In this document: positions 47,798 through 63,817 of the stretch, one piece after another
How the letters are laid out: each line of letters starts with the position of its first letter
Numbering within the stretch: the first letter of the stretch is position 1
Virus record (IMG/VR): IMGVR_UViG_3300024259_001623
Source of the DNA: a virus
Lineage: Duplodnaviria > Caudoviricetes
DNA length: 64,000 nucleotides
Strand: one strand, 5' to 3'
Translations under genes and position numbers: made by a program
The notes under the pieces: model-generated
Told to the model about the DNA's origin: nothing
What the model saw: the letters and a program-made list of their open reading frames with translations, nothing else
The model's database searches: none

Positions 47798-47799
47798 TT

Positions 47800-47836
47800 A
47801 TATATATAAAGCAGCCATCTATTAAGATTAGCTGCT
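47800..47836 (-). terminator. Probable terminator downstream of spoVS
   Basis: Minus-strand hairpin AGCAGCTAATCT-taat-AGATGGCTGCT (one bulge, one G-U pair), followed by TTATATATAT. Confidence 0.45.
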
Positions 47837-47858
47837 CTATACATAACTGTGTTTTAAA

Positions 47859-48200
47859 TTATGATTTCTTTTCAATAACTTCTAAAACAATAGCAGTTCT
47901 ATCTTCGCCACCAGCAAATTCAACAGTTGTGAAACTTGGAGATAGAGCGAAATAAACGCCCTTCTTACTAGCTTCTCCTGATGCGATAATAGTAGCCTTA
48001 ATAGCGTTATTTAAAGCAGCAGCCCCAATACATCTTAGCTTGGCAGACCCATACTTTTGAAATACAACAGAAATGGCTTTTGCAAGACCCTTTACAAAAT
48101 CTTTTGCATCACTTTTATTGTCAAAATGGCCCTTAACAGCCAGAAAAGCAGGATCATCAGAATTTACGAACTTCGTTTTGTCATCTTTCGAGTTAGTCAT
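47859..48200 (-). CDS. spoVS: Stage V sporulation protein S homolog (Alba-like fold)
   Basis: LAKAIS.V....G.AKLRCIGAAALNNAIKA.IIASG....KGV.F...PSFTTVEF.GGEDRTAIVL mirrors SpoVS (AIGAGALNQAVKA.AIARG...PAF..I.IDGEERTAIK). Confidence 0.8.
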   Translation of the reverse strand: MTNSKDDKTKFVNSDDPAFLAVKGHFDNKSDAKDFVKGLAKAISVVFQKYGSAKLRCIGAAALNNAIKATIIASGEASKKGVYFALSPSFTTVEFAGGEDRTAIVLEVIEKKS

Positions 48201-48275
48201 TGTAATAGCCTCCTTGGTTACTAAATTATTGACTTCTAAATTACAATTAGTTTATCGTCATTTTCGTCTTATTAA

Positions 48276-49208
48276 TTATAATAAAATATCATAAAAATTC
48301 TTTCTTTTTTCATTTAACTTGGGATCATCCCATATCTTAGAATTATGACATATATTCTTGCAACCGCATTTTGAGCATTCATAATCATCTTTATTCAAAG
48401 GACGCGGCGGTGGCAATAATTTCAAATCTGTCATTTCATTCATAGATTTTGCCTGTCTTCTGATCAACTTAAATACAGTATCAGTATTTTTCTCGATTTT
48501 GTAAGCAGCAGTATCAGAATTATTTTTATTCTCATATATCAGCAAACCAAACTCAACAGGTAATAAATTAGCATAAATTGTCAACTGAACTCTGTAATCT
48601 AAGCTGGGACCGTGCTGCAAGATCTTTTTGAACTTAAAATCGTTACAAGTCTTCATATCAATAACAAAAGGATTTTTTGGCAACGACTCCATGCTAAAAG
48701 CTTTTGTGATATCCCCGAATCTATCTTCTTTCAATACAGAAAAATCTATAATCATATCAGCATGACCATAAAAATTCAATTCCTTGTCTACTACAGATAC
48801 TTCATTGTAATGGAATTTGTTACAATCACAACTTTCGCATCGTTCTGGTTTGAAACAGCCAAGAGGATCATCTTTTCCAAATATTTGCCCACATTTCAGA
48901 TTAGCACATTTCCAATATCCTCTAAGCACACCGATGGCCTCCATATACTTAGCCCATCTGTCATGCATATTATGGCCTTTATCGAATAAACGAAGTAACT
49001 TGCTTTCGTGACATTCTTCTTCGACTTGGATATATCCTCTTTCTGCATATCTTAGATACTGCATACATCTTAAACATTTTCCAAAAGCAGATGGATGATA
49101 TATCTCAAATCCTCTGGGAGGTCCATTAGAACTTCTCCATCTAAGAAAAGTATCAACTACTCCCATAACTGCTCTTATATCTGGTGTTACAAATGCTTCA
49201 TTACTCAT
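48276..49208 (-). CDS. Cas4/RecB-like PD-(D/E)xK exonuclease
   Basis: HPSAFGKC.R, GHNMH, GHAD, IDMKT, YRVQL..Y and C-terminal CSKCGCKNIC (Fe-S-like Cys set), plus an inserted CxxxxC/CxxC pair. Confidence 0.75.
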   Translation of the reverse strand: MSNEAFVTPDIRAVMGVVDTFLRWRSSNGPPRGFEIYHPSAFGKCLRCMQYLRYAERGYIQVEEECHESKLLRLFDKGHNMHDRWAKYMEAIGVLRGYWKCANLKCGQIFGKDDPLGCFKPERCESCDCNKFHYNEVSVVDKELNFYGHADMIIDFSVLKEDRFGDITKAFSMESLPKNPFVIDMKTCNDFKFKKILQHGPSLDYRVQLTIYANLLPVEFGLLIYENKNNSDTAAYKIEKNTDTVFKLIRRQAKSMNEMTDLKLLPPPRPLNKDDYECSKCGCKNICHNSKIWDDPKLNEKRKNFYDILL

Positions 49209-49948
49209 ATTAGTTCCTTAGTATTTTCTCTACATTTTCTTAAAAGTTCTATAAACGCTTGGCTTCCATTTTCATTGACAAAAACGTCTGGATCTTTTTT
49301 ATCTGGCATTATGACTGGTATTATATCAATTTGAAAAATATCAAATCTTCTTTCTTTAGCCATTTTAACAACTTTTGCTGCCGCTTTTTCACCAGCCATA
49401 TCTCCATCAAAAACCAAAAATATTTCTCTGCAATATCTACTTAACATTGCTATATGTGACATCTTTAAAGTACTACTCATTACACCCACAGTGAACCTAA
49501 ATCCGCTGGCCGAAAGATATTGTACATCAAACTCTCCTTCGACTACTATGGCTTTCTTTTTTTTCAGAATATGTTCTTTTGCAACATTTAATCCATATAA
49601 TATATTCGATTTAGGAAAGCTCTCATGAAAAAACTTCCTTTTTGCTCCATCTCTCCAATCTCTCGAAGACAACGCAACCAAATTGTCATATTGATCGTAT
49701 ATAGGAAGAACCATCCTTCCAGAAAACTCATGATTTACGCCATTTAAATTCATTACATGATCTGGCATATATCCTATATGAAAACGATCTTTAATAATCT
49801 CTATCTGATCATCAGTAAATCTTCTTTTATCAGATTTTAGATAAGCAATAGCTTCTGCACCCTCATCTTGCTCAATAACCTCTCTAGATAGGGCCAGAAC
49901 CTTCTCTCGCTCTATATCTGGTAATCTGTCTCGCCATAGCTTCTTCAT
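49205..49948 (-). CDS. dnaG: DnaG-type primase catalytic core (no zinc-binding domain)
   Basis: A.AYL...RR, FHIGY.P, FSGRMVLPIYD...L.A.S.R, LYGL..AK..I, IVVEGEFDV, FDGDMAG..AA, KKDPD.F. Confidence 0.85.
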   Translation of the reverse strand: MKKLWRDRLPDIEREKVLALSREVIEQDEGAEAIAYLKSDKRRFTDDQIEIIKDRFHIGYMPDHVMNLNGVNHEFSGRMVLPIYDQYDNLVALSSRDWRDGAKRKFFHESFPKSNILYGLNVAKEHILKKKKAIVVEGEFDVQYLSASGFRFTVGVMSSTLKMSHIAMLSRYCREIFLVFDGDMAGEKAAAKVVKMAKERRFDIFQIDIIPVIMPDKKDPDVFVNENGSQAFIELLRKCRENTKELI

Positions 49949-49959
49949 ATTTATTTTTT

Positions 49960-51150
49960 CTAATTAGCCATCATGTCATCTTTATATTCTTCAACCACTT
50001 TTTCTTTTGTTACAGCTTTTTTCCCGTCATAATTTTCTTCAGCCCATTTAGAAATTTCAGGCGGGACAAAAAGACCTGTTTCTTGAGACTTGTCTATCAA
50101 CTCTCCGCACAATGCTTGTTGAAGATCATTGCTTTTGATATTTTCTATAAAAGCTTTCTTTCCTTCTACTTTAATATCATTCCACTTAAAAATTCCCTTT
50201 CTGACAGAGATAACCTTAATCTGTCTTCCATATGAGAACATAAGATCTTCAATATCTGGAAAATATGGCTCATAAAAGATAGGAATTTCGATACTCTCGA
50301 AAAATGGTTTCGCAAATCTATTCTTTCTAATGTATACTCTACTCTTTCTACCTATTAAACGTGGACCGCCATCTTCATCTTCTACCTCTATGTTAGCATC
50401 TTTACTATTCATCTTAGAAACTTGTATTCTTAATGAAGCATTATGCTTCAAACTTCTACCGCCAGGAGTTGTCTCAGGGTTACCGAACATAACTCCGATC
50501 TTTTCTCTTAACTGATTAATGAAAACAACTAACACTCCATACTTAGATGCATAATTGGCGATCTTGCCTAGATTCTCACTCATCAATTTAGCAATAATTC
50601 CTACAGTCGCCTTATCTGCTGACTTCTCCATTCTGGCCTTGGGGACCATATTAGCAACAGAGTCCAACACAATGACCTTTACGCCGCTCTTGCTCAAAGT
50701 CACAATGGCATCAAAAACATCTTCTGCATGAAAGACTACATCTTCATCTTCTGGATTAGACATATCAGAATAGAAGATAGTATCTCTGTCTGCACCATTA
50801 ATTTCAGCAAGATTATCTGAGAAACTATGCTCGGTATCAATCCATGCGCATTTATGACCCATCTTCTGTGCAAAACCAACTATTCTATATGCCAAAGATG
50901 ATTTTCCGCCACCCTCTTCCCCAAAAATTTCTACAATCTTGCCGAGAGGACATCCCAATGGTTCATTAGCATCATATCCCTCAACCGTTGACAAATCTAC
51001 ATCTTTAGGTAAAACTCCATGATGGATAGCAAAATCCAAATCAAAATGTCCAATAGGAACATTACCTGGAGAATTCGTGCTGGCACCAAGTCTAACAAAA
51101 CCTTTTAGGTTCTCTAGAATTATATCATCTGTACTCTTTTTCTTAGCCAT
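49960..51150 (-). CDS. recA: RecA recombinase
   Basis: GKIVEIFGEEGGGKSS, WIDTEHS, IVLDSVA, FINQLREKIGVMFGNPETTPGGRSLKHNASLR. Confidence 0.93.
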   Translation of the reverse strand: MAKKKSTDDIILENLKGFVRLGASTNSPGNVPIGHFDLDFAIHHGVLPKDVDLSTVEGYDANEPLGCPLGKIVEIFGEEGGGKSSLAYRIVGFAQKMGHKCAWIDTEHSFSDNLAEINGADRDTIFYSDMSNPEDEDVVFHAEDVFDAIVTLSKSGVKVIVLDSVANMVPKARMEKSADKATVGIIAKLMSENLGKIANYASKYGVLVVFINQLREKIGVMFGNPETTPGGRSLKHNASLRIQVSKMNSKDANIEVEDEDGGPRLIGRKSRVYIRKNRFAKPFFESIEIPIFYEPYFPDIEDLMFSYGRQIKVISVRKGIFKWNDIKVEGKKAFIENIKSNDLQQALCGELIDKSQETGLFVPPEISKWAEENYDGKKAVTKEKVVEEYKDDMMAN

Positions 51151-51162
51151 TTACAACTCCTT

Positions 51163-51714
51163 TTATATATCTATTGATGCTTTATATCCAAACAGTATCT
51201 CTTCTATTTTAGAAGGATCAGTAGCGACATAAATCTTTTTTAAATCATGTAATCCCTTAGACTTTATAAGTGATACATCTTCTTCTGTAAGACTGTGAGG
51301 CCCAACGAATGTAACCTTATATCGTTTATCTTTGCCAACACCTGAAACAGATATTTTAAATTCTGCTCCATTAGAACCACCTGGATTCCTACCAGTCTTC
51401 TCATAGAAAGTCTTAAAATTCTTAAAAATATATTCAGACTGTTCAAAAACTTTAATCTTATTATCTCTTCTATCTAAAACATTTATGGCGAATCTTAAAG
51501 TTGGTCTTATATTATGTGTAGTTGCCACAGGACAAGTATCTTCATCAAGACATACGGCACTTTTAAAGCTTGGGGAATATATAAAATATTTTTTAAAATA
51601 ATGCAATTTCCCCAACAACCTCATAGTAACAGATTCTCCATCTTTCAGGTAAAGAAATATATTATTATTACTATAACTATTACCTGTAGGTATATCACTC
51701 CATCCCATAGACAT
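51163..51714 (-). CDS. Phage (gp32-like) single-stranded DNA-binding protein
   Basis: FLYLKDGES..MRLLG...C....CP......R.AINVLDR.DN.IKVFE...FKI...G.GKD.RY.V; located beside recA. Confidence 0.6.
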   Translation of the reverse strand: MSMGWSDIPTGNSYSNNNIFLYLKDGESVTMRLLGKLHYFKKYFIYSPSFKSAVCLDEDTCPVATTHNIRPTLRFAINVLDRRDNKIKVFEQSEYIFKNFKTFYEKTGRNPGGSNGAEFKISVSGVGKDKRYKVTFVGPHSLTEEDVSLIKSKGLHDLKKIYVATDPSKIEEILFGYKASIDI

Positions 51715-51724
51715 CTTTATCTCC

Positions 51725-53023
51725 TTATAGCAAATCCCAGCTTGCTTCTTTTGCTGCCGACTCTAAATTAACATCTTTTACTTCTACTTCCGCTTTTACT
51801 TTTTCATTTGCCTTTTTGACAGAAGCAGTTAACTGGTCTAAAATATCAAACTCCTTCAACTCTTCTGGAATTTCTTTTTCTTCAACGACCTCAACTGATT
51901 TTTCTTCTATCTCGGCAACAATATCTTTCTCATGATCTTTTGGATTAAAATGGTTTTTAGTATTCACATCGCCCATCCTTTCAATATTTTTATTTGGAAG
52001 TGCAATTGTCAACTGTCTAGACAAAGTTTCATAAGCATTATCTAAGTTTTTAGACACGATTTCAGCAGAACGGTGTATCCCTTTAAGATCAGAGAAATAC
52101 AATCCAAAATCACTAAGATGTTCATATATAACACCTTCCTGTTTAACTGCTGGCTTTGCATATTCTACTCTAGCCAACAACCCTTTCAAAAACTCATATG
52201 CTGTTTCAAACTTGTAATACTGACTATTGCAATTCATTTGAATTTCTTTGACTCTATCTCTCCAAGCCTGTACCTCTTGCATCCTTTTATGGATTTGAGG
52301 CAAATCATATATAGGAACTGATACATCTACCTTTGCGTCAATCAACTCCTGAGTATACCGCTCAATAGGAATCATATCACTTTTCAAAACACGATTCAGG
52401 ATATTAGCCTTCTCCCTATAAAAAGAATCGAACTTAGGAGAAGGACTGGTGAGATTCCATTCATCTAAATTAACGATAGGTTCAATAGAACCTGTATGTC
52501 CATCTTCAGATACCTCTTCTAGATATTTTTCAGTGACCTCTTCTACAACATCAGAATTATCACCATCTTTTAGATCAATACACTCAATAGGTTTTCCATC
52601 CGTTTGAACCCATCCAACCTTTTCAGGATATTTTACTGCAACCTTCAGAGCATCACCTAATGCCTCAACATCATCTCTAATAGGGAAAGTCCCTGTAAGA
52701 ACTTCTTCCACAGGAGGCTCTTCTACAATCTCTTCCTGATTAGTCTCTTGTATAATGGTTGCAATATCATCGTCCATAGATACAGATTCTGTTAAAATAT
52801 TAGAAGGAACTTCTTCTACAGCATCTGCCTTTTCATCTTTTTTAACTTCAAGCTCTTTACCATCAACGGTGCCAACCATTTCTTTTACCATATTAACCTT
52901 GTCTTCAAAAGACTCCTTATTTTGAGCATCACTCAACTCTCCATAGATTTCATCATCTGATGAATGTTTTTCTTTTGGATTAATCCCAAAAATGTCTTTT
53001 ATTTTATCAATATCTTGTGCCAT
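51725..53023 (-). CDS. Hypothetical protein with an acidic N-terminus and a C-terminal coiled coil (possible UvsY-like mediator)
   Basis: Long helical block ending KNLDNAYETLSRQLT; adjacent to SSB and recA. The UvsY-like role is inference only. Confidence 0.5.
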   Translation of the reverse strand: MAQDIDKIKDIFGINPKEKHSSDDEIYGELSDAQNKESFEDKVNMVKEMVGTVDGKELEVKKDEKADAVEEVPSNILTESVSMDDDIATIIQETNQEEIVEEPPVEEVLTGTFPIRDDVEALGDALKVAVKYPEKVGWVQTDGKPIECIDLKDGDNSDVVEEVTEKYLEEVSEDGHTGSIEPIVNLDEWNLTSPSPKFDSFYREKANILNRVLKSDMIPIERYTQELIDAKVDVSVPIYDLPQIHKRMQEVQAWRDRVKEIQMNCNSQYYKFETAYEFLKGLLARVEYAKPAVKQEGVIYEHLSDFGLYFSDLKGIHRSAEIVSKNLDNAYETLSRQLTIALPNKNIERMGDVNTKNHFNPKDHEKDIVAEIEEKSVEVVEEKEIPEELKEFDILDQLTASVKKANEKVKAEVEVKDVNLESAAKEASWDLL

Positions 53024-53039
53024 AATACCATCCTATATT

Positions 53040-53417
53040 TTATATACCATCGAATATATCATTATCAACTGTAGCACCGCCACTATCATCCTTTTTAGGG
53101 TCTTTAGAGGCAAAAACTTTCTTCTCTCCCAAACCCAACTCATCACATGCAGTATTCAATGTTCTTTTTAATTCATTAGCAACATGAATAGATATAGCAT
53201 CCAATTTCTTTTGTCTTTCTTTCAGGTCAGTCCAGGTTATTTCTTCTTCTAGACTAACATCAACTTTAAGACCCTCGTATTTCGCCGTCCATATAGTTCT
53301 TTGCATACTTTTTCTTACTACAGTTGTTCTTTCTACAGTTGTGCTTATTTCACTCTTACCATCAGCAGACATTGTTACTGTAGTATTTCTTACTTCACCT
53401 TTTCCACCTTCAGACAT
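53040..53417 (-). CDS. Hypothetical protein
   Basis: 125 aa ORF with SD GGAG. Confidence 0.55.
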   Translation of the reverse strand: MSEGGKGEVRNTTVTMSADGKSEISTTVERTTVVRKSMQRTIWTAKYEGLKVDVSLEEEITWTDLKERQKKLDAISIHVANELKRTLNTACDELGLGEKKVFASKDPKKDDSGGATVDNDIFDGI

Positions 53418-53428
53418 TATTATCTCCT

Positions 53429-55432
53429 TTAGAATAACGATTCTGGACCTACGCCTCTTTTAGCAGATGCTTTCATATCTTTTCTCAAAGATCCAAATTT
53501 ACTTGCTAACATTTCCGCGAAATCTTGTTTTTTAATTTTTTGACCTTTAGGTAATTTTTTATTAAGTTCTTTAAATTCATCATTAAAGAATCCTGCTTCT
53601 GCCAAAGACCTAATAGCTCCCAGGTCTACCTTGCTAGTATCTGTATTGAATGCTATATCTCTCAAATTATCATACGGAGCATTCTTAGCCAATTCTGTAG
53701 CTGTTTCAATTCCTACGCCTTCACATACAATACTAGGCATTATCTCTGTGAATTCTACTCCAGAGTTTCCGTCTTTCTTCTTAATTATCTTATATTCTAC
53801 TCCACAAGAATTCAATTTCTTAGGAAGAATTTTTATATCAAACTTTTTACAGTCTCTTTCTAATTCCTTAACCTTATCGTACTTCTTACGAGTACTTTCT
53901 ATATTCATATACGCACACATAAATTCATCAGTATAATTCGATTTCAAATATGCCGTCATATAAGAGTCATAAGCATAGCAACATGAGTGAGCCGCATTAA
54001 AACCATAAGCTGCGAATGGAGTAATAAACTTCTCCCAATAATCATCTGCTATTCTTTCAGGTAAGCCTCTTTCCACGGCACCTTTAATAAACAAACCTTT
54101 ATACTTATCAATAAGATTTTGTTTCTTCTTACCAATACCCTTAATTAATACATATCCATCCGTTTCAGAGAAACCTGCTAGTTCTTTACAAATTTGCATA
54201 ACCTGTTCTTGGAAAACTAACACTCCATAGGTCTTATCTAAAATATGCTTGACGTGCTTCTCGATAACTGGATGGAAAAAGTCTACTGTCTTAAAACCCT
54301 TTTTCCTAGCACAATATTCTGGAATCGAAACCATAGGCCCAGGTCTATATAGTGCAATAGCGGCCATAATATCATTAAAACAATCGACTTCGATTTCTTG
54401 TATAGTCTCTTGCATCCCTCTATTTTCACACTGGAAAATACCTGTCAGCTTACCGCTCTTATACAGATCAAAAGTATTCTTATCATCTAGAGGCAAATTT
54501 TTGATATCTATATCTATATCATAATTTTGTTTAACCATCTCGACTGTCTTTTTAATAACAGATAATGTACTGATAGCCAATATATCAAATTTTATAAGTC
54601 CCATACTCTCAAGGTCTTCATTTGGGAATTGAGTAGCAAAACCCTTATTAGAAGTTCTCAAAGGAGCAATCGTATGCAATGGAACATTAGAAATAACTAC
54701 ACCAGCAGCATGAACTCCAAAATTAGAAACAATACCTTCTATAAGTTTTGCATGATTTCTAAAACCTTTTTCCTCGAATTTATCTATATACGCTTTGAAA
54801 TCTGAACAATACTTATAAGCATCTTCGATAGTCTTTATTTTATGCTCAACGCCATCTTCATCGGCTACTTTAAGAATAGCTCCGATCTGTCTTGGCAAAG
54901 AAGCAACTATCTCAGATACTTTAGCTTCATTTTCGCTTTTATTCTCTTTGCTACCTTTGAAAAATGCATTTGCTACATCAAGTGCCTTACCGATTCTACG
55001 TATTGCAGATTTTAATTTAAGACCACCATAAGTTCCGATATTGCCGACATTTTCTCTACCGTATTTGTCAATAATATAGTCATATATTTCTTGTCTACGG
55101 AAATATTCAAAATCACTATCAATATCTGGGAAACCTGCTCTAGCGAATGCTCTTCTTTTGAGCAAAAATTCCCCATCAGGGAATTTAGCAGTCATTCCTA
55201 TATAATAAGCAGTAATACTGTTAATGGCATTGTTCTTGCCTTTTCTTTTATTCTTTTTCTTTTTCTTTTTTCTTCTTTCCCATGTGTCGTAGAATCCCTC
55301 TAATAGACTACGACCGTCAAGGCCGTCCTCTACTTCCATAAAATCTAATTCACTATCTATTTGTTTCAGTGCGCTTTCGTCAGCACCCTGAACCTCAGAA
55401 AGAATTTGTTTTCTAATTTCTTCTATTTGCAT
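53429..55432 (-). CDS. dnaE: DNA polymerase III alpha, catalytic half (palm, thumb, fingers, HhH; no PHP domain, no OB fold)
   Basis: RAGFPDIDSDF, FGVHAAGVVIS, GLIKFDILAISTLS, GIFQCE, AIALYRPGP, YGVLVFQEQVM, YGFNAAHSCCYA, YLKSNY; ends GPESLF. Confidence 0.93.
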   Translation of the reverse strand: MQIEEIRKQILSEVQGADESALKQIDSELDFMEVEDGLDGRSLLEGFYDTWERRKKKKKKNKRKGKNNAINSITAYYIGMTAKFPDGEFLLKRRAFARAGFPDIDSDFEYFRRQEIYDYIIDKYGRENVGNIGTYGGLKLKSAIRRIGKALDVANAFFKGSKENKSENEAKVSEIVASLPRQIGAILKVADEDGVEHKIKTIEDAYKYCSDFKAYIDKFEEKGFRNHAKLIEGIVSNFGVHAAGVVISNVPLHTIAPLRTSNKGFATQFPNEDLESMGLIKFDILAISTLSVIKKTVEMVKQNYDIDIDIKNLPLDDKNTFDLYKSGKLTGIFQCENRGMQETIQEIEVDCFNDIMAAIALYRPGPMVSIPEYCARKKGFKTVDFFHPVIEKHVKHILDKTYGVLVFQEQVMQICKELAGFSETDGYVLIKGIGKKKQNLIDKYKGLFIKGAVERGLPERIADDYWEKFITPFAAYGFNAAHSCCYAYDSYMTAYLKSNYTDEFMCAYMNIESTRKKYDKVKELERDCKKFDIKILPKKLNSCGVEYKIIKKKDGNSGVEFTEIMPSIVCEGVGIETATELAKNAPYDNLRDIAFNTDTSKVDLGAIRSLAEAGFFNDEFKELNKKLPKGQKIKKQDFAEMLASKFGSLRKDMKASAKRGVGPESLF

Positions 55433-55435
55433 ATT

Positions 55436-56008
55436 TTACCTTCTAGTATTTATTCTGGCATGTAGATCATTAGGTTTATCAATTATATGATCTACGATTC
55501 CCATTTTTAAAGCCTCTTTTGCAGTTATGTAAGAGTCTTTTGACATCAAATCTTTAATTTGTTTATTGCCCAAATTAGTATATTTTTTAATCAGACTTTC
55601 TAGTTGCTTTTGCAATTCTTTTGTTGCCTTGACTTCGTTATCCATCTCATGAATATTGCCATAAAAACCAGTGCTTACAGAATGCATCAAAACACAAGAA
55701 TTAGGAGTAATAAATCTCTTTCCTTTTGTTCCGCTCATAAGTATCATTTGAGCGGCACTCATAGCTTTTCCAACACAAATGGTAGCAACATCACATCTGC
55801 ACATTTTTATAGCATCATGTATAGCCAACAAACTGTAACATTCTCCACCATAAGAATCAATATACAAAAGTATATCTGACATAGGGCTTTCTTCTTCTAA
55901 ATCAATTAAACTCTGAACAACAGTTTTTACACTTTCTTCATCAATCTTGCCGTTTAAATGAATTATTCTCTTCTCTTTTGCTTCCTTAGCTGCTGTGGTC
56001 ATATTCAA
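55436..56008 (-). CDS. clpP: ClpP-family protease subunit
   Basis: RII.LNG.ID, LYIDSYGG, VGKAMSAA (Ser), RF...NS..LMH (His), RD-like KDSYITAKEALKMGIVD. Confidence 0.9.
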   Translation of the reverse strand: MNMTTAAKEAKEKRIIHLNGKIDEESVKTVVQSLIDLEEESPMSDILLYIDSYGGECYSLLAIHDAIKMCRCDVATICVGKAMSAAQMILMSGTKGKRFITPNSCVLMHSVSTGFYGNIHEMDNEVKATKELQKQLESLIKKYTNLGNKQIKDLMSKDSYITAKEALKMGIVDHIIDKPNDLHARINTRR

Positions 56009-56023
56009 TATTCCTTTCTTAAC

Positions 56024-56419
56024 TTATGAAAATATTTCCCAGGGAAATTGTATCCAAGTGCCGTCATCAATTTTTTCTGCGTAAAAATCTGGTTTAATTT
56101 TACTAGATTCTCTATAAAACAAAGAAGCTGTTTTAAATCTTTTATGATAATTAGTTATAGTCGCTCCAGAATCCACAATGTCGTCAATTAAAATTGGCTT
56201 TACAGTATAATTGTCAATATTAGAGATATTATCATGAATATAAATATGATTATCACTAATATGACAAAGACATGTTGCAACAATAACGCCACCGCGAGGA
56301 ATACCCATAACACCACTACTTTCTTTTTTCATAACGTCAGAAAGTAAATATACCATATTATGAAAATAGTCCCAAGATATTTTTCGTACAGGCTGATCTT
56401 TCGCTCTCATCTTAGCCAT
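56024..56419 (-). CDS. Purine phosphoribosyltransferase-like protein
   Basis: GIPRGG, PRPP-binding loop LIDDIVDSGAT, WIQFPWE. Confidence 0.85.
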   Translation of the reverse strand: MAKMRAKDQPVRKISWDYFHNMVYLLSDVMKKESSGVMGIPRGGVIVATCLCHISDNHIYIHDNISNIDNYTVKPILIDDIVDSGATITNYHKRFKTASLFYRESSKIKPDFYAEKIDDGTWIQFPWEIFS

Positions 56420-56434
56420 ATTGTTCCTCCAATC

Positions 56435-59065
56435 TTAATAACGATCAACTCCGCCAAGGTCATCGTCAACTTCTCTTTCTTCATCTATATCATTATCAAA
56501 AACATCCACTGATACATCTTCATCTTCATCATCAAAGAAATCAGAATCTTTTATGAAGTATTTCGTGTCAAATCCCAAGAACCTTTCCCAGATAAGGTCA
56601 TAATCCAGAGGATCGACTCCATAACATATATCTAAACAATGCAATAGAACGCTTGCATAACCTGAATTATGAACTACAAAAGAAGATGTTAAATAATTAG
56701 ATTCATTTTCTACAGTCAAATCATAAACTTCTTTTATATTTTCAACTTCTGCTATACTTCTAACTTTTAATAATATCCCATTATCAACCTGTTTATACGT
56801 AAATTTTTTATTGTTTTCTATATAGATAGTTTTTGGAGAAACGATAACATAACTATTTTTTGCATTTCTAAATGCTTCTCTTTTATCGATTCTTTCATAC
56901 AAACTCAAAGAAGAAGGCACACCAATTTTTCTATAAATATATCTGATTTGATTAGCCAACTTTTTAGAAACTGTTGTATAACTCAACTTATATTTACTTA
57001 ATGATCCATCTCCATCATGCAACCCAATTAATAAAGATTTTATTTTTTCATAATTATTTTCTTTTATAAATAGCTCTGGTATATATTTAGAAGAAGCGCA
57101 AAAATTATAATCTTTAAACATTTTTTTAAATAATGCATATATGAATTTACTTTTTATATATACCTGAATTAAATTTTTGCTTACATGTTTGTTTATGTAT
57201 ATACTAAAATTATATTTATCAAAATAATTTATAATCTTGTATATTTGATCTTCTTCATTACTATTAAAAGCGAATGCTATATAACTCTTATCTCTTCGTG
57301 TAATCCAGCCATCAGATATAAACTTACCTACAACATAAAAAAAATCATCATCAAATGATATATATCTATCATGCACTAAATCACTCAATATATTCTTTTT
57401 ATTCATAGGATTTAATCTCATAGAATGAACTTGATGTTTATCACATACCATATCACTATTATTTTGAAATTCACCAAAATCTATAAATTTGTTATTATTC
57501 TGCTTAAAATTCTCTTTGACATAAGGGACAAAAACCCAATCTCCAACTTCTAAATCTTTTGCATTAATCCAGCACATATGATTACCTGTTGGATCTTTAT
57601 ATCTTTTCATGCGTTTTTTACAAGAATCACTATATTTCTCCCATCCATCTGGTCTTACTAGTTTTTCAACCAAGATTTTATGATCTTTGGTAACAGTTAC
57701 CCCACACGAATCTCCATAATAACATTTGATATTTAAAAGCGTTTCATCTTTAATATTATATTTATGTTTTTTCACAACTTTTTGTTTTTTACCGCTTAAA
57801 GATATAACATTATCTCCTTCCTTAATATCTTTAATTTTTTTTGTTTCCCCCTCTCCCATTACAATACCAACATCACCTGACAAACATCCTCTACCTGGAC
57901 CTGTCAAAATATCAGAATCATTTGCAAATTTCATTATATCTTCTTCGATCAGAAAATATGTTGCAAAATCATATCCATTATTTTCCCAAGCGACTCTAAC
58001 ATCTTTCAACTCTTTTTTCAACGTTGCTACGTGGTCAGGACTTTTATCCCATCCTCTTTTCTTCATACCATCCATAGCTTTTTTCTTCATATATTCGTAT
58101 GAGCCTTCAAACTCTCCCATATCCGCATATTCTTTTGGTATCTCTATATTAGGCAATCTCATACCGCCAAATAGATTCTTGGTTATATCTTCTGTATCTA
58201 TTCGGTCTGACAAAGCAACAGTGTTCCTTAAACATTCTGGAGAAAATCTAAATATCTTTGCCATTTCCTCTGCACTTTTAAGATAGAACTCTTCATACGG
58301 ATGCTTTAAATGCTTTGGATTTGTGATACAATTAGATGTTGACATGCACATAAGAACTTCATGAGATTTTGCGTGTTCTTTTAAAAGATAATGACAATCA
58401 TTTGTCGCTATGACTGGAATGTCCATTTCTTTTCCTAGCTTGAAAATCTCTGGAAGAATAAGAGCTTCTTTATCTATACCATGATACATTGCCTCAAGGA
58501 AAAAATCTTCTCCAAAAATATCTTTTAATATACCGCAAATATCTTTTGCACTATCATATCTATCATAAAGAAGATTAGCATTGATTGCACTAGATAAGCA
58601 AGCGCTGCCTATGATTAAGCCCTCAGAATGCTTCTCTAACAGTTCTAAATCTATTCTAGGGGTGAAATAGAATCCATCAACCCAAGACTTCTCAGACAGA
58701 GTACACAGGTTCTCATACCCTTTATAGTTTTTCGCCCATATATTTAAATGCCTATTACCCTTCTGCCCATCAGGCTGATCGTCTTTGCTTTTATATTCCA
58801 TCTTTCTAGATAAATATACTTCACATCCCAAAATGGGCTTAATTGGTTTATATGGAATGTCATCTCCGTTCTTATCTTTAGTAGCAGAGCATTCTTTGAT
58901 AAACTTGATCCAAGAACCTATAGTTCCATGATCTGTTATAGCCAATGCCGGAAATTCCATTTCCCTTGCCTTTAAGACCAGCTTCTTTAGCTGAGACAAT
59001 CCATCAAACTGGCTAAATTCAGAATGACAATGTGCGTGAACAAAATCACTGTTTTTGAACTTCAT
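56435..59065 (-). CDS. dnaE: DNA polymerase III alpha, N-terminal half (PHP domain plus start of palm), intein-containing
   Basis: Start adjusted to ATG 59065 (SD AAGGA). Motifs HAHCHSEFS.FDG, AITDHG, GCEVY, SACL, TNDCHY, GPGRG|S and VDPL.YDLIWERFL, then an acidic tail and stop with no PDxDxD motif. Confidence 0.92.
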   Translation of the reverse strand: MKFKNSDFVHAHCHSEFSQFDGLSQLKKLVLKAREMEFPALAITDHGTIGSWIKFIKECSATKDKNGDDIPYKPIKPILGCEVYLSRKMEYKSKDDQPDGQKGNRHLNIWAKNYKGYENLCTLSEKSWVDGFYFTPRIDLELLEKHSEGLIIGSACLSSAINANLLYDRYDSAKDICGILKDIFGEDFFLEAMYHGIDKEALILPEIFKLGKEMDIPVIATNDCHYLLKEHAKSHEVLMCMSTSNCITNPKHLKHPYEEFYLKSAEEMAKIFRFSPECLRNTVALSDRIDTEDITKNLFGGMRLPNIEIPKEYADMGEFEGSYEYMKKKAMDGMKKRGWDKSPDHVATLKKELKDVRVAWENNGYDFATYFLIEEDIMKFANDSDILTGPGRGCLSGDVGIVMGEGETKKIKDIKEGDNVISLSGKKQKVVKKHKYNIKDETLLNIKCYYGDSCGVTVTKDHKILVEKLVRPDGWEKYSDSCKKRMKRYKDPTGNHMCWINAKDLEVGDWVFVPYVKENFKQNNNKFIDFGEFQNNSDMVCDKHQVHSMRLNPMNKKNILSDLVHDRYISFDDDFFYVVGKFISDGWITRRDKSYIAFAFNSNEEDQIYKIINYFDKYNFSIYINKHVSKNLIQVYIKSKFIYALFKKMFKDYNFCASSKYIPELFIKENNYEKIKSLLIGLHDGDGSLSKYKLSYTTVSKKLANQIRYIYRKIGVPSSLSLYERIDKREAFRNAKNSYVIVSPKTIYIENNKKFTYKQVDNGILLKVRSIAEVENIKEVYDLTVENESNYLTSSFVVHNSGYASVLLHCLDICYGVDPLDYDLIWERFLGFDTKYFIKDSDFFDDEDEDVSVDVFDNDIDEEREVDDDLGGVDRY
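56666..57886 (-). mobile_element. Full-length intein with LAGLIDADG homing endonuclease (407 aa)
   Basis: Starts CLSGD after GPGRG and ends YDLTVE.ESNY....VVHN before Ser. Block B motif VTKDH; LAGLIDADG motifs VGKFISDG and IGLHDGDG. Confidence 0.92.
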
Positions 59066-61557: not shown

Positions 61558-61989
61558 TTAAATAATATCGTAATCGAAATCTTCCCTTTCGCCAAAAATC
61601 TTATCTAAAAACTCTGAATCTATTATCCAAGTATCCCAAAAATGCTTCCAAAAGTCCACATTCTCTCTCGCCAAATCTGGAAAAGGCTTTGGTCTATTCC
61701 ATCCTACCGATTGCGACCATGAAGATATAGCTCTAACATCTGGATTATAAAAAGCATCACCCTGAGTAGATGGATTAAACTCCATTATGTATATATCTCC
61801 ATTGGCATAAAAATGTAACAACATTTTAGATGATCCAAATGAACTCGTAATGGTAACACCTGATTCCAGCATCCAAGAGTCTTTAGCAAAAAGATCTTCA
61901 TTCATCAAATCTCTAGTTTGATCAAAAACTCCCTCTGTCTCTATCAGAGTTAAATCATCAAACTCAATTTCGAATTCGGTTTCTGTCAT
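61558..61989 (-). CDS. Hypothetical protein
   Basis: 143 aa acidic ORF coupled to the methyltransferase gene (TAATG). Confidence 0.55.
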   Translation of the reverse strand: MTETEFEIEFDDLTLIETEGVFDQTRDLMNEDLFAKDSWMLESGVTITSSFGSSKMLLHFYANGDIYIMEFNPSTQGDAFYNPDVRAISSWSQSVGWNRPKPFPDLARENVDFWKHFWDTWIIDSEFLDKIFGEREDFDYDII

Positions 61990-62858
61990 TAAAATAAACT
62001 CTCTTCTTTTTCTTGTAATGAATTTTTCTTATTCTTAGCTAATCTATCAGATCTAGGAACATACTCATCTTCTACTATTTTACAATTATCATATTCTTCT
62101 ATTCTATTCCTAGCAAAATCGCAATAATCCTCGTCACAATCTATTCCTATATATTTCCTGCCATACTTGTTGGCAACATATAGAGTAGTGCCAGAACCAG
62201 AAAACATATCCAAAACAGTATCTTCTCGATACGAAAATAACTTAACAACTCTTTTGGCAAGTTCTTCGGGGAAAGGAACCGGATGCCCACCAAGCTTTCT
62301 AGTTTCAGGACGGACAAACCAAGTACTAAATGTCCAATCATTAAACTCCTTAATAGTCATATCGGATAATTCTGAATCACCTTCTAATTTATATTTGTCT
62401 TTAGAAAAAACATATATAAATTCATGCGTACTTCTCATTATAGGGAATGAGCATGAATCAAATGATCCCCACGCTGTCTTTTTGCCAGCAGCATCTTGCT
62501 TATACCAGACTATTTCAGCGAAAGGCAGCATTCCTATTTCTTCCATCTGATTAGACAAATATTTTCCTATAAATCTAAAATATTCTTTGTCTTTGTCGTT
62601 TTGTCTATTAGTAATTGTAGCCATATTAATAGCTAGTCTACCGCCAGACCTTAATACTCTTTTACTTTCTATCCATATTTTTTTTAGCCAATCCATATAA
62701 TCTGACCAAGGCATATCATCTTTATAAGAGCCGTAATCAATTTTCAGATTATATACCGGCGAGGTAAAAATAAGAGATACACAATTATCTGGCATTTTTT
62801 TTAAAACATTCAGATTGTCATCACAAATAATCTTATTTTCAAATTCTTTTACATCCAT
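61989..62858 (-). CDS. DNA N4-C/N6-A methyltransferase (beta class)
   Basis: Motif IV TSPVY precedes HPVPFPEELAKR and motif I DMFSGSGTT...GRKYIGID. Start adjusted to ATG 62858 (SD AGGA). Ends EESLF. Confidence 0.9.
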   Translation of the reverse strand: MDVKEFENKIICDDNLNVLKKMPDNCVSLIFTSPVYNLKIDYGSYKDDMPWSDYMDWLKKIWIESKRVLRSGGRLAINMATITNRQNDKDKEYFRFIGKYLSNQMEEIGMLPFAEIVWYKQDAAGKKTAWGSFDSCSFPIMRSTHEFIYVFSKDKYKLEGDSELSDMTIKEFNDWTFSTWFVRPETRKLGGHPVPFPEELAKRVVKLFSYREDTVLDMFSGSGTTLYVANKYGRKYIGIDCDEDYCDFARNRIEEYDNCKIVEDEYVPRSDRLAKNKKNSLQEKEESLF

Positions 62859-63726
62859 CACATTTTTTCCTATTAAAATGAACATTTTTCATAATCTTAC
62901 CACAAACACAACATTGTTTATCACGACTCAAATTGTTTTGATAACATTGTATACTCTTTAAGGCTAAATATTTCTTCCTTCCCAAAGCAAAATAACTATT
63001 ATCGTACATCTTTTTAAAACAATGAAAAGCATAAATACTGTTAATGCCCAATGTGCCATTAACATTTGATTTGCAATTATAATTAATGGAATAATGAGTA
63101 CATTTAATTTTTTTCTCCAAAATAGATAAAACTTTTTTAAGAAATTTTTCATGCCCAACAATATTAAAACCAATTATTTTAGAGCTATCTCGCGGGGGTT
63201 TAATGCTTCCATCTCCGTCAACGTAGCCTCTTAAAAAATGCCAAAAATATCGATCAGGGATATTAGGCAAATCAAAGTCCCAAGTTTTCCTGTGGCAAAT
63301 ACCTCTATTCATCAAAGACCGGACGAATTCACCAGAATAAACACAAAAGACATAGCAATTAGAATTCTTTTCTTTTTTAATTTCAAAATTCGATTCTAAC
63401 TCATCTTTTAAAAAATCTAACAATTCATAATCTATAGATTTAATTGTGAATTCGTACTTATGAGGTCGGATACAACCATCGGCGGATATATATCCTAATA
63501 AATAAGCCATATTTATAGACCATTTATTAAAATATTGTTTATTAACGTAATTTATTCTTTTGGGATTTTTTCCATTTCTTCCTTTAATAGGAATATTATT
63601 TCTTTTTATTGCATAGCGAATTGCGCTAGCAGTACAATTATATTTTTTAGCAATCTCTGTACTTGCCATATTCTTCAAAATATACATATCATATAATTCT
63701 TGTTTTGTCGCTTTTATTTTAGACAT
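62839..63726 (-). CDS. Free-standing LAGLIDADG homing endonuclease with N-terminal HTH and C-terminal Cys cluster
   Basis: AYLLGYISADGC and HFLRGYVDGDGS motifs; EIAKKYNC....IRYA HTH. Start adjusted to ATG 63726 (SD GGAG). Confidence 0.88.
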   Translation of the reverse strand: MSKIKATKQELYDMYILKNMASTEIAKKYNCTASAIRYAIKRNNIPIKGRNGKNPKRINYVNKQYFNKWSINMAYLLGYISADGCIRPHKYEFTIKSIDYELLDFLKDELESNFEIKKEKNSNCYVFCVYSGEFVRSLMNRGICHRKTWDFDLPNIPDRYFWHFLRGYVDGDGSIKPPRDSSKIIGFNIVGHEKFLKKVLSILEKKIKCTHYSINYNCKSNVNGTLGINSIYAFHCFKKMYDNSYFALGRKKYLALKSIQCYQNNLSRDKQCCVCGKIMKNVHFNRKKCDGCKRI

Positions 63727-63817
63727 TTTTATCTCCCCTGTAATATTCTGGAGAAACAAAAATATCCTTTATATATTTTACCATTTTGCCCCAAAACAAT
63801 AAATTTGTATTACTCAT
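63719..63817 (-). CDS. Possible 32 aa small ORF (MSNTNLLFWGKMVKYIKDIFVSPEYYRGDKNV)
   Basis: Fills the gap between two genes and overlaps both the upstream stop and the downstream start. Confidence 0.25.
   Translation of the reverse strand: MSNTNLLFWGKMVKYIKDIFVSPEYYRGDKNV

What the first reader, a model, noticed from the sequence alone, without database searches (positions are those of the whole stretch)
53429..59065. DnaE split into two genes through the middle of the palm, with no split intein, a duplicated palm entry and charge-complementary ends
Seen: gene A (59065-56435) encodes a PHP domain with intact-looking metal ligands plus the palm entry (GPGRG/S...VDPL.YDLIWERFL). It stops before PDxDxD and ends in an acidic tail (DSDFFDDEDEDVSVDVFDNDIDEEREVDDD). 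Gene B (55432-53429) starts with a degenerate second copy of the same segment (KQIDSELDFME...NNAINSITAYYIGMT, against GSGAGSLVAYALKIT), preceded by a poly-basic tract (RRKKKKKKNKRKGK). It then carries RAGFPDIDSDF, KFDIL, fingers and HhH, and lacks the OB fold. ClpP and a PRTase lie between the two genes. Known: in E. coli alpha the G363-S364 loop, R390 and R396 bind the dNTP triphosphate and D401, D403 and D555 are catalytic; the known cyanobacterial split DnaE is rejoined by a split intein. Here the GS loop and the R390-equivalent (WERF) are in A, while the R396-equivalent and all three Asp residues are in B. Inference: either the active site is assembled in trans as a heterodimer, possibly zipped by the acidic tail and basic tract, or B is a stand-alone divergent polymerase and A is a detachable PHP proofreading subunit. 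I am not aware of either architecture being described.
Basis: partly seen in the sequence, partly recalled or inferred. Interest (0 to 1): 0.85.

Follow-up and report, generated by a model that had tools for sequence, protein, structure and literature searches.

The report
Two-gene phage DnaE polymerase, no split intein
A giant marine phage, like over a thousand metagenomic relatives, encodes its DnaE-type DNA polymerase as two separate proteins that are predicted to lock together and build one active site from both chains, which has not been shown for a polymerase of this family.

Summary
Gene A (56435-59065, minus strand) encodes a PHP domain with all nine metal ligands and the palm up to GPGRG|S...WERFL. 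A 407-aa LAGLIDADG intein sits exactly in the GS loop. Gene B (53429-55432, minus strand) carries R98, PD103xD105, KFD283, thumb, fingers and HhH, and ends at the position of E. coli's clamp-binding motif. It has no OB or tau-binding domain.

The split is the usual state in a large clade of marine giant phages: 1233 A-type hits, conserved synteny, and contigs up to about 500 kb. Rare fused ~1100-aa orthologues carry the same ~115-aa insert between WERFL and RAGFPD, and the cut lies inside that insert.

An ESMFold2 complex of the closest intein-free pair scores 0.83 against 0.00 for the best control. A's whole GS loop and B's DxD strand lie in the interface. The AF2 model of B alone matches E. 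coli alpha only from residue 391 on, whereas a fused orthologue matches residues 1-910.

Best reading: an obligate heterodimer with a trans-assembled active site. The charge "zipper" is not conserved. The closest precedent is the PHP-less split "minimal Pol III" of Iyer et al. 2021. First readers of this scan also noted the feature in other genomes.

The parts
56435..59065 (-). Gene A: DnaE N-subunit precursor of 876 aa, 469 aa after protein splicing. It contains PHP, the palm N-part, an intein, the GS-loop helix, WERFL, a decayed DxD strand and an acidic tail.
   Evidence: ORF and Pfam matches. The family profile aligns to Taq DnaE 6-470 and E. coli 3-413. There are 1233 homologues of 420-490 aa.
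58487..59038 (-). PHP domain with all nine metal ligands: H12 H14 D21 H46 E82 H106 C156 D223 H225.
   Evidence: Pfam PF02811, 4e-41. The ligands are invariant or nearly invariant in 121 homologues and present in the window protein. The pattern of five His, three Asp/Glu and one Cys is that of the active Mtb DnaE1 exonuclease (PMC5636811).
57887..57901 (-). GPGRG, the N-side of the nucleotide-binding GS loop and the last residues of the N-extein.
   Evidence: Sequence. GRG is invariant in the family.
56666..57886 (-). Intein of 407 aa with a LAGLIDADG homing endonuclease, inserted between G393 and S of the GS motif.
   Evidence: C1...HN|S boundaries. Pfam Intein_splicing, LAGLIDADG_3 and Hint. 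The same insertion site is used in relatives P0377 and P0242.
56576..56665 (-). Start of the C-extein: S801 (the Ser of GS), helix alpha2, G.DP, and WERFL (the equivalent of E. coli R390).
   Evidence: Alignment to Taq 426-455. This is the most conserved block of the A family, with mean column identity 0.83. In the complex model it lies in the interface with B.
56534..56557 (-). Decayed copy of the catalytic strand (FIKDSDFF). It is A's contribution to the inserted 'clasp' module.
   Evidence: Aligns to Taq P462-F468 without the first Asp. DFG is nearly invariant. D435/F436 touch B residues 65-66 with an expected error of 0.8-1.1 A.
56438..56533 (-). Acidic tail ending in the conserved C-terminal motif DDLGGVDRY (56438-56455).
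   Evidence: 69 of 110 A homologues end in GGxDR[YWF]. The motif is absent from the four fused forms read through the linker (P0013, P0060, P0070, P0098). Its function is unknown.
56024..56419 (-). PRTase-like gene (131 aa) inserted between A and B.
   Evidence: Weak Pfam Pribosyltran match and PHROG 8995 at 2e-13. It is absent from this position in relatives.
55436..56008 (-). ClpP-family protease gene (190 aa) inserted between A and B.
   Evidence: Pfam CLP_protease, 2e-47. A ClpP gene also lies between A and B in L002, but not in L001, L003 or L004.
53429..55432 (-). Gene B: DnaE C-subunit of 667 aa, with clasp, catalytic palm strands, thumb, fingers and HhH/beta-binding domain. It has no OB or tau-binding domain.
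   Evidence: Pfam. The profile aligns to Taq 422-945. The AF2 model has pLDDT 93. B residues 95-651 align to E. coli 391-910 with Z 26.4.
55151..55432 (-). B residues 1-94, B's part of the inserted clasp module. It has three helices, a variable basic loop (R53-K66, 55235-55276), a pseudo-GS loop with a second alpha2-like helix (N67-T81, 55190-55234; N68 invariant), and the start of the conserved RRAFAR segment (R93-R98), which continues into the next part.
   Evidence: Secondary structure. This region is not aligned to any solved DnaE. An HMM of residues 62-99 hits canonical alpha2. It makes contacts with the A tail. The whole module is missing in the fused variants P0243 and P0246.
55112..55129 (-). 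PDIDSD: catalytic D103 and D105 (E. coli D401 and D403). It is preceded by R98, the equivalent of E. coli R396.
   Evidence: Invariant in 117 homologues. Aligned to Taq PD463ID465TD.
54584..54592 (-). KFD: the third catalytic Asp, D283 (E. coli D555).
   Evidence: K281 and D283 are invariant. Aligned to Taq KMD.
53432..53449 (-). C-terminal GPESLF, a clamp-binding-like motif at the extreme C-terminus.
   Evidence: The model's C-terminus aligns to E. coli residue 925 in 5fkw. The E. coli motif is 920-QADMF-924 (PMC3201878). A motif of the form x[DESN][LIMFV]F is found in 60 of 109 B homologues.

Best explanation
A and B are the two obligatory subunits of one replicative C-family (DnaE-type) DNA polymerase of a marine giant phage of about 435 kb.

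Steps, with their status:
1. A is translated as a precursor, and its LAGLIDADG intein splices out to restore GPGRG-SG. This is inferred from intact splicing motifs.
2. Spliced A (469 aa) supplies the PHP proofreading exonuclease and the first half of the Pol-beta-like palm: strand beta1, the GS loop, helix alpha2 and WERFL with the R390 equivalent.
3. B supplies the R396 equivalent, the DxD strand, the third Asp, thumb, fingers, the HhH domain and a C-terminal clamp-binding-like motif.
4. The two chains pack as the domains of a single-chain DnaE do, so the nucleotide-binding loop of A meets the metal-binding strand of B. This is predicted, not measured.

The cut lies inside a clade-specific insert of about 115 aa between WERFL and RAGFPD. 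The insert contains decayed second copies of the DxD strand (on the A side) and of the GS-loop helix (on the B side). These inner copies are predicted to pack on each other as a helical 'clasp' module that is shared between the chains and helps hold them together.

The junction is evolutionarily labile. In different relatives the two genes are adjacent, fused, or separated by one or two inserted genes (here PRTase and ClpP). In two fused variants (P0243, P0246) the insert is absent.
For: - **Complementary motifs under selection.** In A, GRGSG, G.DP, W.RFLGF and all nine PHP ligands are invariant or nearly so. In B, N68, R98, PD103xD105xD107 and K281/D283 are invariant.
- **Canonical DnaEs match a fused orthologue in two stretches.** The stretches are query 5-415 and query 531-984. 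The canonical GS-to-ERFL block is therefore the copy in A and the canonical DxD strand is the one in B.
- **Rosetta-stone fusions.** Fused orthologues of 1082-1117 aa carry the same insert in the same synteny.
- **Pairing and synteny.** A and B lie on the same contigs in at least 25 cases by matching contig length. The gene order is conserved in four loci and in the window.
- **Complex prediction.** For the closest intein-free pair (65% and 62% identical to the window proteins), ipSAE is 0.83 against a best control of 0.00. This mark was reached by 58 of 80 solved complexes and 2 of 110 mismatched pairs. There are about 430 contacts, the runs agree at 90% or more, and the partner pLDDT is at least 84. 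The interface contains A 386-397 (LTGPGRGSGFAS), A 420-438, B 86-94 and B 97-105 (FPDIDSDFD). A residues D435/F436 touch B residues 65-66.
- **B alone is incomplete.** The AF2 model of B alone aligns to E. coli alpha only from residue 391 (Z 26.4, 502 residues aligned). Its segment 91-100 has low confidence.
- **A fused orthologue is complete.** Its AF2 model (pLDDT 93.7) aligns to E. coli residues 1-910 (881 aligned, Z 42.9) and to the Taq ternary complex (895 aligned, rmsd 2.9 A).
- **The assembly is reproduced.** Independent seawater assemblies carry the same arrangement.
Against: - Nothing has been measured. Binding and active-site geometry rest on two structure predictors. Both may rebuild the DnaE fold from memory, and I could not read coordinates or distances.
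- B keeps a strongly conserved pseudo-GS loop (N68, N71, S72). Its role is unexplained and it might substitute for GS.
- The complex was modelled for a relative, not for the window's own proteins.
- No RNA data were found, so expression and intein splicing are unverified.
- The insert-free fused variant P0243 comes from a single 9.5-kb contig.
- The duplication is statistically supported only for the alpha2-like helix and the strand remnant, not for the whole insert.
Confidence: 0.8

Rival explanations
1. B is a self-sufficient, divergent polymerase that uses its own N68...N71-S72 loop in place of GS. A is a bound or detachable PHP proofreading subunit whose palm piece serves only as a docking element.
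For: B's pseudo-GS loop is invariant or nearly invariant. HMMER aligns it to Taq 422-430. B alone folds with pLDDT 93.
Against: - Structurally, B alone starts matching DnaE only at E. coli residue 391. No element of B occupies the position of beta1, GS or alpha2.
- A's GS block is the most conserved part of A (0.83). It is the homing site of the intein and lies wholly in the predicted interface next to B's DxD strand.
- Canonical DnaEs align to A's copy, not B's.
- The fused variants P0243 and P0246 delete B's pseudo-GS loop but keep A's GS.
Confidence: 0.1
2. A and B are joined into one chain after transcription or translation, by an unrecognised trans-splicing element, an intron, or ribosomal bypass or frameshift.
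For: In one relative the two genes are only 14 nt apart.
Against: - There are no Hint/intein motifs at either end and no Rfam intron.
- Two unrelated genes lie between A and B here.
- A has its own conserved C-terminal motif before the stop in 69 of 110 homologues.
- B has its own RBS, its own ATG and a conserved N-terminus.
- In L003 the frames differ and stops occur in all frames.
Confidence: 0.04
3. The split is a decayed or misassembled gene: a pseudogene or a chimera of two dnaE genes.
For: None beyond the unusual layout.
Against: - More than 1000 A-type homologues and at least about 120 B-type homologues (108 of the 120 listed hits, plus 16 further 50%-identity cluster representatives) have intact catalytic residues.
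- Independent assemblies give identical sequence across the junctions.
- The complex prediction is strong.
Confidence: 0.01

Closest known systems
Split 'minimal' DNA polymerase III alpha of group 2.2 (T4-like) jumbo phages (Iyer, Anantharaman, Krishnan, Burroughs, Aravind 2021, PMC7824862)
   Same: It is a phage C-family catalytic module divided into two stand-alone proteins at the same functional boundary: an NTP-binding N-part and a Mg2+/DNA-binding C-part. The authors proposed that the parts reconstitute one enzyme, and no intein is involved.
   Different: That version is reduced to the nucleotidyltransferase core plus the template-binding domain and has no PHP. Its genes lie far apart and it accompanies a family B polymerase. 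Here A carries a full PHP exonuclease and B carries thumb, fingers and the beta-binding domain. The genes are adjacent or nearly so, fused orthologues exist, and the cut lies in a duplicated insert. I did not test homology between the two splits.
Cyanobacterial split DnaE (DnaE-n/DnaE-c joined by the naturally split DnaE intein; Caspi et al. 2003, cited in PMC3919608)
   Same: dnaE is encoded as two genes.
   Different: There the halves end and begin with intein halves and are ligated into one chain. Here there are no intein halves at the break, and the only intein is a contiguous one inside A. By my recollection the cyanobacterial break lies elsewhere in the protein, not in the palm between GS and DxD.
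Canonical single-chain DnaE1 with an active PHP exonuclease (Mtb DnaE1 5lew/7pu7; Taq Pol III alpha 2hpi/3e0d)
   Same: The domain order is the same, the nine PHP ligands are present, and GS, R, DxD...D, fingers and HhH are all present. The fused orthologue model superposes on 3e0d over 895 residues at 2.9 A.
   Different: The phage enzyme is two polypeptides, has a ~115-aa insert in the palm, and has no OB fold or tau-binding C-terminal domain. B ends at the internal clamp-motif position.
Single-chain DnaE of jumbo phages such as Bacillus phage G (group 3.2 of Iyer et al. 2021)
   Same: A phage-encoded DnaE with an N-terminal PHP domain. The A query aligns to phage G gp329 over residues 8-526, past A's intein insertion point at residue 393.
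   Different: It is one gene. Identity to the window proteins is about 26-33%. The INPHARED collection holds no close relative of this clade.

Membership tests
C-family DNA polymerase, DnaE type (Pol III alpha) | N-terminal PHP domain | tested here: met
   PF02811 at 4e-41 in A. All nine metal ligands are present.
C-family DNA polymerase, DnaE type (Pol III alpha) | Pol-beta-like palm with a GS nucleotide-binding loop | tested here: met
   GPGRG|SG in A is restored by intein removal and is invariant in homologues. It aligns to Taq 422-426.
C-family DNA polymerase, DnaE type (Pol III alpha) | Three catalytic aspartates (E. coli D401, D403, D555), absolutely conserved in the family (PMC3919608) | tested here: met
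   B has D103, D105 and D283, invariant in 117 sequences and aligned to Taq. A's own remnant lacks the first Asp.
C-family DNA polymerase, DnaE type (Pol III alpha) | Fingers and HhH (beta-binding) domains | tested here: met
   PF17657 at 3e-51. The structural alignment runs to E. coli residues 910-925.
C-family DNA polymerase, DnaE type (Pol III alpha) | C-terminal OB fold and tau-binding domain | tested here: not met
   B ends at the equivalent of E. coli residue ~925. No further domain is found by Pfam.
C-family DNA polymerase, DnaE type (Pol III alpha) | All catalytic elements on one polypeptide | tested here: not met
   There are two ORFs separated by two genes, in the window and in most relatives.
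Split-intein DnaE (cyanobacterial type) | An N-intein at the end of the N-gene and a C-intein (ending HN plus a nucleophile) at the start of the C-gene | tested here: not met
   Hint/intein matches are confined to A residues 392-800. A ends in GGVDRY and B starts MQIEEIRKQ. Fused orthologues run straight through the break.
Split minimal Pol III alpha of group 2.2 jumbo phages (Iyer et al. 2021) | Split between the NTP-binding and the Mg2+/DNA-binding subdomains | tested here: met
   GS and R390 equivalents are in A. R396 and DxD equivalents are in B.
Split minimal Pol III alpha of group 2.2 jumbo phages (Iyer et al. 2021) | Reduced to the core: no PHP or other Pol III domains | tested here: not met
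   A has a full PHP domain. B has thumb, fingers and HhH.
Split minimal Pol III alpha of group 2.2 jumbo phages (Iyer et al. 2021) | Accompanies a family B polymerase, with the two genes far apart | tested here: inconclusive
   The genes here are 1 kb apart or adjacent, so the 'far apart' criterion is not met. No whole genome is held, so the presence of a family B polymerase could not be checked. Earlier notes on this genome list none.
Class 1 intein with LAGLIDADG homing endonuclease (element inside A) | C1 nucleophile, block B TxxH, terminal HN, +1 Ser/Cys/Thr, and two LAGLIDADG motifs | tested here: met
   CLSGD..., TKDH...VVHN|S. Pfam Intein_splicing at 1e-10 and LAGLIDADG_3 at 2.5e-7.

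The most novel reading that the evidence does not exclude
This would be an intein-free, obligately heterodimeric C-family replicase whose catalytic centre is built in trans.

A partial tandem duplication of the GS-loop/alpha2/DxD-strand unit left the outer copies as the true active site. The inner, decayed copies became a shared 'clasp' domain. That arrangement allowed the gene to be cut, and later re-fused or interrupted by other genes, repeatedly in a globally distributed clade of marine giant phages.

The conserved free C-terminal GGVDRY tail of the split A subunits may be a new docking peptide of this replisome.
Probability: 0.55. Interest if true: 0.72.

Novelty: new variant of a known kind. 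Interest (0 to 1): 0.62.

Why it matters
Bacterial-type replicative polymerases are described as single catalytic chains. In the papers I could search, the only natural dnaE splits were the cyanobacterial one, which an intein re-ligates, and a PHP-less mini version in other jumbo phages.

If A and B work as a non-covalent pair, a Pol-beta-like active site can be divided between the nucleotide-binding loop and the metal-binding strand and still serve as a main replicase.

This gives a natural system for studying how the PHP exonuclease and the polymerase communicate. It also offers a split scaffold for engineering, and a worked example of gene fission through internal duplication.

The feature appears to be the norm in an abundant, uncultured group of 400-500 kb marine phages. 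Annotation pipelines that expect one ~1100-aa DnaE will therefore mislabel it, as the 'PHP domain-containing protein' and 'hypothetical protein' names in public records show.

Tried and rejected
- **Close relatives in GenBank phages.** There are none: megablast gave no match, and tblastn identities were at or below about 36%.
- **IMG/VR scan with exact peptide words.** No confirmed relative.
- **Whole-genome search.** No genome is held for this window.
- **Direct profile-profile comparison of copy 1 with copy 2.** The alignment is in register but not significant (E 0.17).
- **Likeness of B residues 1-52 to the region before GS.** Not distinguishable from reversed-sequence controls.
- **Mixed alignments of A, B and fused forms.** MAFFT mis-placed B's copy 2 onto copy 1 (A3, A4, A6), so these were discarded. 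A7, with B rows cut before N.INS, was used instead.
- **Charge zipper as the conserved tether.** Rejected as a general mechanism.
- **B residues that co-vary with the GGVDRY tail.** Tested on 26 A/B pairs. The best p was 8.5e-4 over 1365 tests, which is not significant.
- **The 432-aa gene downstream of B as a sliding clamp.** No support. No clamp was found in window 40-47 kb.
- **Promoters, terminators and Rfam families.** Promoter and terminator scans gave nothing beyond chance. No Rfam family was found in the locus.
- **RNA runs.** None hold the stretch, so expression was not tested.
Full report
**What is in the window**

The window is AT-rich (about 31% G+C) and every gene examined in and around the finding lies on the minus strand. 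The contig that carries gene B is 434,625 bp. Seawater metagenomes from many studies hold the stretch. No close relative exists among 50,697 GenBank phage records.

Gene A (56435-59065) starts MKFKNSDFVH, like its homologues. It contains a PHP domain (Pfam 4e-41) and the first 69 positions of the DNA_pol3_alpha profile.

A complete intein follows at residues 394-800, which is 56666-57886. It has C1, TKDH, two LAGLIDADG motifs and a terminal HN, followed by Ser. It is inserted exactly between GPGRG and SG.

The C-extein continues with helix alpha2, G.DP and WERFL. It then has the segment FIKDSDFF and a 32-aa acidic tail that ends in DDLGGVDRY.

A PRTase-like gene and a ClpP-family gene follow A, and then gene B (53429-55432). 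Each of these three has its own Shine-Dalgarno sequence, and the intergenic gaps are 3-15 nt. B matches DNA_pol3_alpha profile positions 67-260 and the finger domain, with a weak HhH match.

**The split is the normal state of a large clade**

A search with B returns about 650-aa proteins on metagenomic contigs of up to about 500 kb, including Tara Oceans contigs. It also returns a few ~1100-aa proteins that carry PHP and cover 100% of B.

A search with A's N-extein returns 1233 proteins. The best 120 are all 420-494 aa, with PHP plus the palm N-part.

Four loci were fetched, and all show the same gene order: DnaB, DnaG Zn-ribbon, methylase ... A ... B, ~100 aa, ~390 aa, ~220 aa, RecA, Toprim, ~335 aa, SpoVS.

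| Locus | What lies between A and B |
|---|---|
| L003 | nothing (14-nt gap, different frame) |
| L002 | ClpP |
| L001 | a 155-aa ORF |
| L004 | fused, one 1089-aa ORF |

The window has the same order. Independent assemblies of other seawater runs bridge B-ClpP-PRTase-A without a single difference. Misassembly and pseudogene readings are therefore excluded. First readers of this scan noted the same layout in other genomes. I did not check those notes.

**What is duplicated**

Family profiles were compared with solved structures. A covers Taq Pol III alpha 6-470 and E. coli 3-413. B covers Taq 422-945 and Mtb 380-910. Taq 422-470, which runs from the GS loop to the DxD strand, is therefore matched twice. 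Pfam shows the same overlap: A-type proteins cover profile positions 2-99 and B covers 67-260.

- In A the GS loop is canonical, but the strand is decayed. The equivalent of Taq D463 (E. coli D401) is missing. The next position is E or D in 79 of 110 homologues, and DFG is nearly invariant.
- In B the strand is canonical (PD103-I-D105-S-D107, invariant). GS is replaced by K-N68, followed by I-N-S and a short alpha2-like helix.

An HMM made only from B residues 62-99 finds canonical DnaEs at GRGS+7 in 95 of 99 cases. The median score is 5 bits, against -3.7 bits on reversed sequences. Direct comparison of copy 1 with copy 2 is not significant, and B's first 52 residues show no detectable likeness.

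When a fused orthologue is used as query, canonical bacterial DnaEs match in two stretches, query 5-415 and query 531-984. Seen against an ordinary DnaE, the clade therefore has an insert of about 115 aa between WERFL and RAGFPD.

The canonical elements are A's GS-alpha2-WERFL and B's R98-PDxDxD. The gene is cut inside the insert. Two fused relatives lack the whole insert (WERFLAF-RTAEDG-KRVFARPGFPDIDSDF in P0243, and similarly in P0246). A's strand remnant and B's N-terminal 90 residues are therefore lost together. P0243 lies in a 9.5-kb contig with the usual downstream genes, but it was seen only once.

**Do A and B form one enzyme?**

I modelled the closest intein-free natural pair: L002 A, 65% identical to spliced window A with identical numbering, and P0002, 62% identical to B. 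Family alignments were supplied.

The ipSAE score was 0.83 (three runs gave 0.83-0.85), and the best of three controls scored 0.00. The mark was reached by 58 of 80 solved complexes and 2 of 110 mismatched pairs. These counts hold only roughly here, because my own alignments were used. There are about 430 contacts, the runs agree in at least 90% of contacts, and the partner pLDDT is at least 84.

Mapped onto the sequences, the interface contains:
- all of A's LTGPGRGSGFAS;
- A's ERFLGF...ESDFGF segment;
- B's LPLRRAFAR and FPDIDSDFD;
- one face of the helix that follows in B;
- PHP surfaces packed against B's palm sheet around KFD.

The best-defined cross-contacts include A D435/F436 with B residues 65-66. 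This places A's strand remnant against B's pseudo-GS loop. Because single-chain DnaE structures are solved, this pass may reflect memory of the fold. It shows that A+B can rebuild a DnaE, not that they bind in a cell.

Two AlphaFold2 models give an independent check.
- Window B alone (pLDDT 93) has three N-terminal helices, a short helix at 73-77, and a coil at 78-103 with a confidence dip at 91-100. It superposes on E. coli alpha only from residue 391 onward: B 95-651 on 2hnh 391-910, Z 26.4, 502 residues aligned.
- The fused orthologue P0098 (pLDDT 93.7, with the insert also confident) superposes on E. coli 1-910 with 881 residues aligned (Z 42.9). It superposes on the Taq ternary complex with 895 residues aligned at 2.9 A.

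Nothing in B occupies the place of E. coli residues 355-390, so that place is filled by the A part.

In the fused model the insert is a mainly helical module. It is flanked by two short strands, one right after WERFLG and the other at RRAY right before ARAGFPD. Natural A proteins end, and natural B proteins begin, in its first loop.

**Mechanism proposed**

Shown from sequence:
- the division of motifs between A and B;
- their conservation;
- the existence of fused, adjacent, interrupted and insert-free states;
- an intact set of PHP ligands matching the five His, three Asp/Glu and one Cys of the active Mtb DnaE1 exonuclease (PMC5636811).

Predicted:
- a large, domain-like A-B interface;
- a composite active site made of GS and the R390 equivalent from A with the R396 equivalent, D103, D105 and D283 from B;
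- a clasp module assembled from both chains.

Inferred:
- the insert arose by partial tandem duplication of the GS-alpha2-strand unit, the outer copies stayed catalytic, and the inner copies decayed into the clasp;
- this made fission tolerable.

A maximum-likelihood tree of the shared C-terminal region puts the fused forms at several separate places among split ones inside a clade with 100/98 support. At least 3-6 changes of state are needed, so the junction has been cut or rejoined repeatedly. The direction of these changes is not resolved.

B ends at the position of E. coli's internal clamp motif 920-QADMF-924, with G.x[ES]xD/S-[LIM]-F. The enzyme is therefore probably clamp-dependent. I found no clamp gene in the part of the window I scanned.

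**The charged ends**

Acidic tails on A are common, with a median net charge of about -6. However, 19 of 110 homologues end right after DFGF. The four fused forms whose linker I read (P0013, P0060, P0070, P0098) have only a short linker there.

B's loop before N.INS has a median charge of +3, and the window's +11 is the single extreme. The predicted interface does not use the tail beyond residue 446. A charge zipper is therefore at most an accessory.

The notable feature is the C-terminal motif GGxDR[YWF], found in 69 of 110 split A proteins, including the window's. It is absent from those four fused forms, and its partner is unknown. A covariation screen against B found nothing significant.

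**Comparison with what is known**

Surveys of C-family polymerases in bacteria and in dsDNA viruses mention only intein-split cyanobacterial DnaE and single-chain phage enzymes.

Iyer et al. 2021 (PMC7824862) described a 'minimal' Pol III alpha in T4-like jumbo phages. It is split into an NTP-binding protein and a Mg/DNA-binding protein encoded far apart, without PHP, and it occurs beside a family B polymerase. That is the same functional cut in a different architecture.

Full-text searches found no description of a PHP-bearing, intein-free, two-gene DnaE. The library does not cover subscription journals.

**Verdict**

The trans-assembled heterodimer is the best-supported reading (about 0.8). 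The zipper idea is not supported as a general mechanism. I rate the finding a new variant of a known kind, with interest 0.62.

Noticed in passing
window 56438-56455 (A C-terminus), and A homologues P0121-P0240: A conserved free C-terminal motif, ...[ED]DD[LFM]GG[VTI]DR[YW]-stop, follows a variable acidic linker in 69 of 110 split A subunits. It is absent from the four fused orthologues read through the linker (P0013, P0060, P0070, P0098). It looks like a docking peptide, but its partner is unknown.
   Followed up: partly
window 53432-53449 (B C-terminus): B ends in GPESLF. In the family the C-terminus reads G[VIL]xSxD[LIM]F and aligns structurally with E. coli's internal beta-clamp motif at 920-924. 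No clamp gene was found in the part of the window I scanned.
   Followed up: partly
P0243 (994 aa) and P0246 (873 aa): These are fused DnaE variants that lack the whole ~115-aa insert (WERFLAF-RTAEDG-KRVFARPGFPD). P0243 lies inside the split clade and P0246 in its sister branch. P0243 is seen on a single 9.5-kb contig with the usual downstream genes.
   Followed up: partly
P0263, P0348, P0382: More distant single-chain DnaEs (34-36% identity, 1039-1397 aa) carry a similar insert with a second alpha2-like helix at the same palm position. In the tree they branch among canonical DnaEs. The insert is therefore either older than the phage clade or has moved between lineages.
   Followed up: no
window 55436-56419; L001 5534-6001; L002 6388-6999: The gap between A and B is a hot spot for inserted genes: PRTase plus ClpP here, ClpP in L002, an unknown 155-aa ORF in L001, and nothing in L003. 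In run X4 one contig matches up to position 55435, just upstream of the B start codon, and then diverges. This suggests co-occurring strains with a different gene at this position.
   Followed up: partly
P0252, P0253, P0267, P0366 (A-type); P0005, P0016, P0020, P0119, P0120 (B-type): Several clade members are 150-800 aa longer than the usual A or B. The B-type ones, except P0120, are about 400-470 aa longer, and all five B-type proteins carry Intein_splicing Pfam hits (two also endonuclease hits). The longer A-type ones lack the GRG|C...HN|S signature, so any insert lies elsewhere. The GRG|S site is shared with P0377 and P0242.
   Followed up: partly
window 62839-63759 (minus strand): A 306-aa ORF has a LAGLIDADG_3 match (7.5e-10). 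It lies next to the N6/N4 methylase gene at 61989-62885 and may be a free-standing or intein-borne homing endonuclease.
   Followed up: no
window 47177-53417 (minus strand): The conserved replication and recombination block downstream of B contains these genes:
- unknown 125-aa and 432-aa proteins (the latter with a faint UvsY-like hint);
- a weak SSB-like 183-aa protein;
- RecA;
- a DnaG Toprim domain encoded separately from its Zn-ribbon;
- a Cas4/RecB-like exonuclease;
- SpoVS;
- a weak Mu Gam-like protein.
   Followed up: partly
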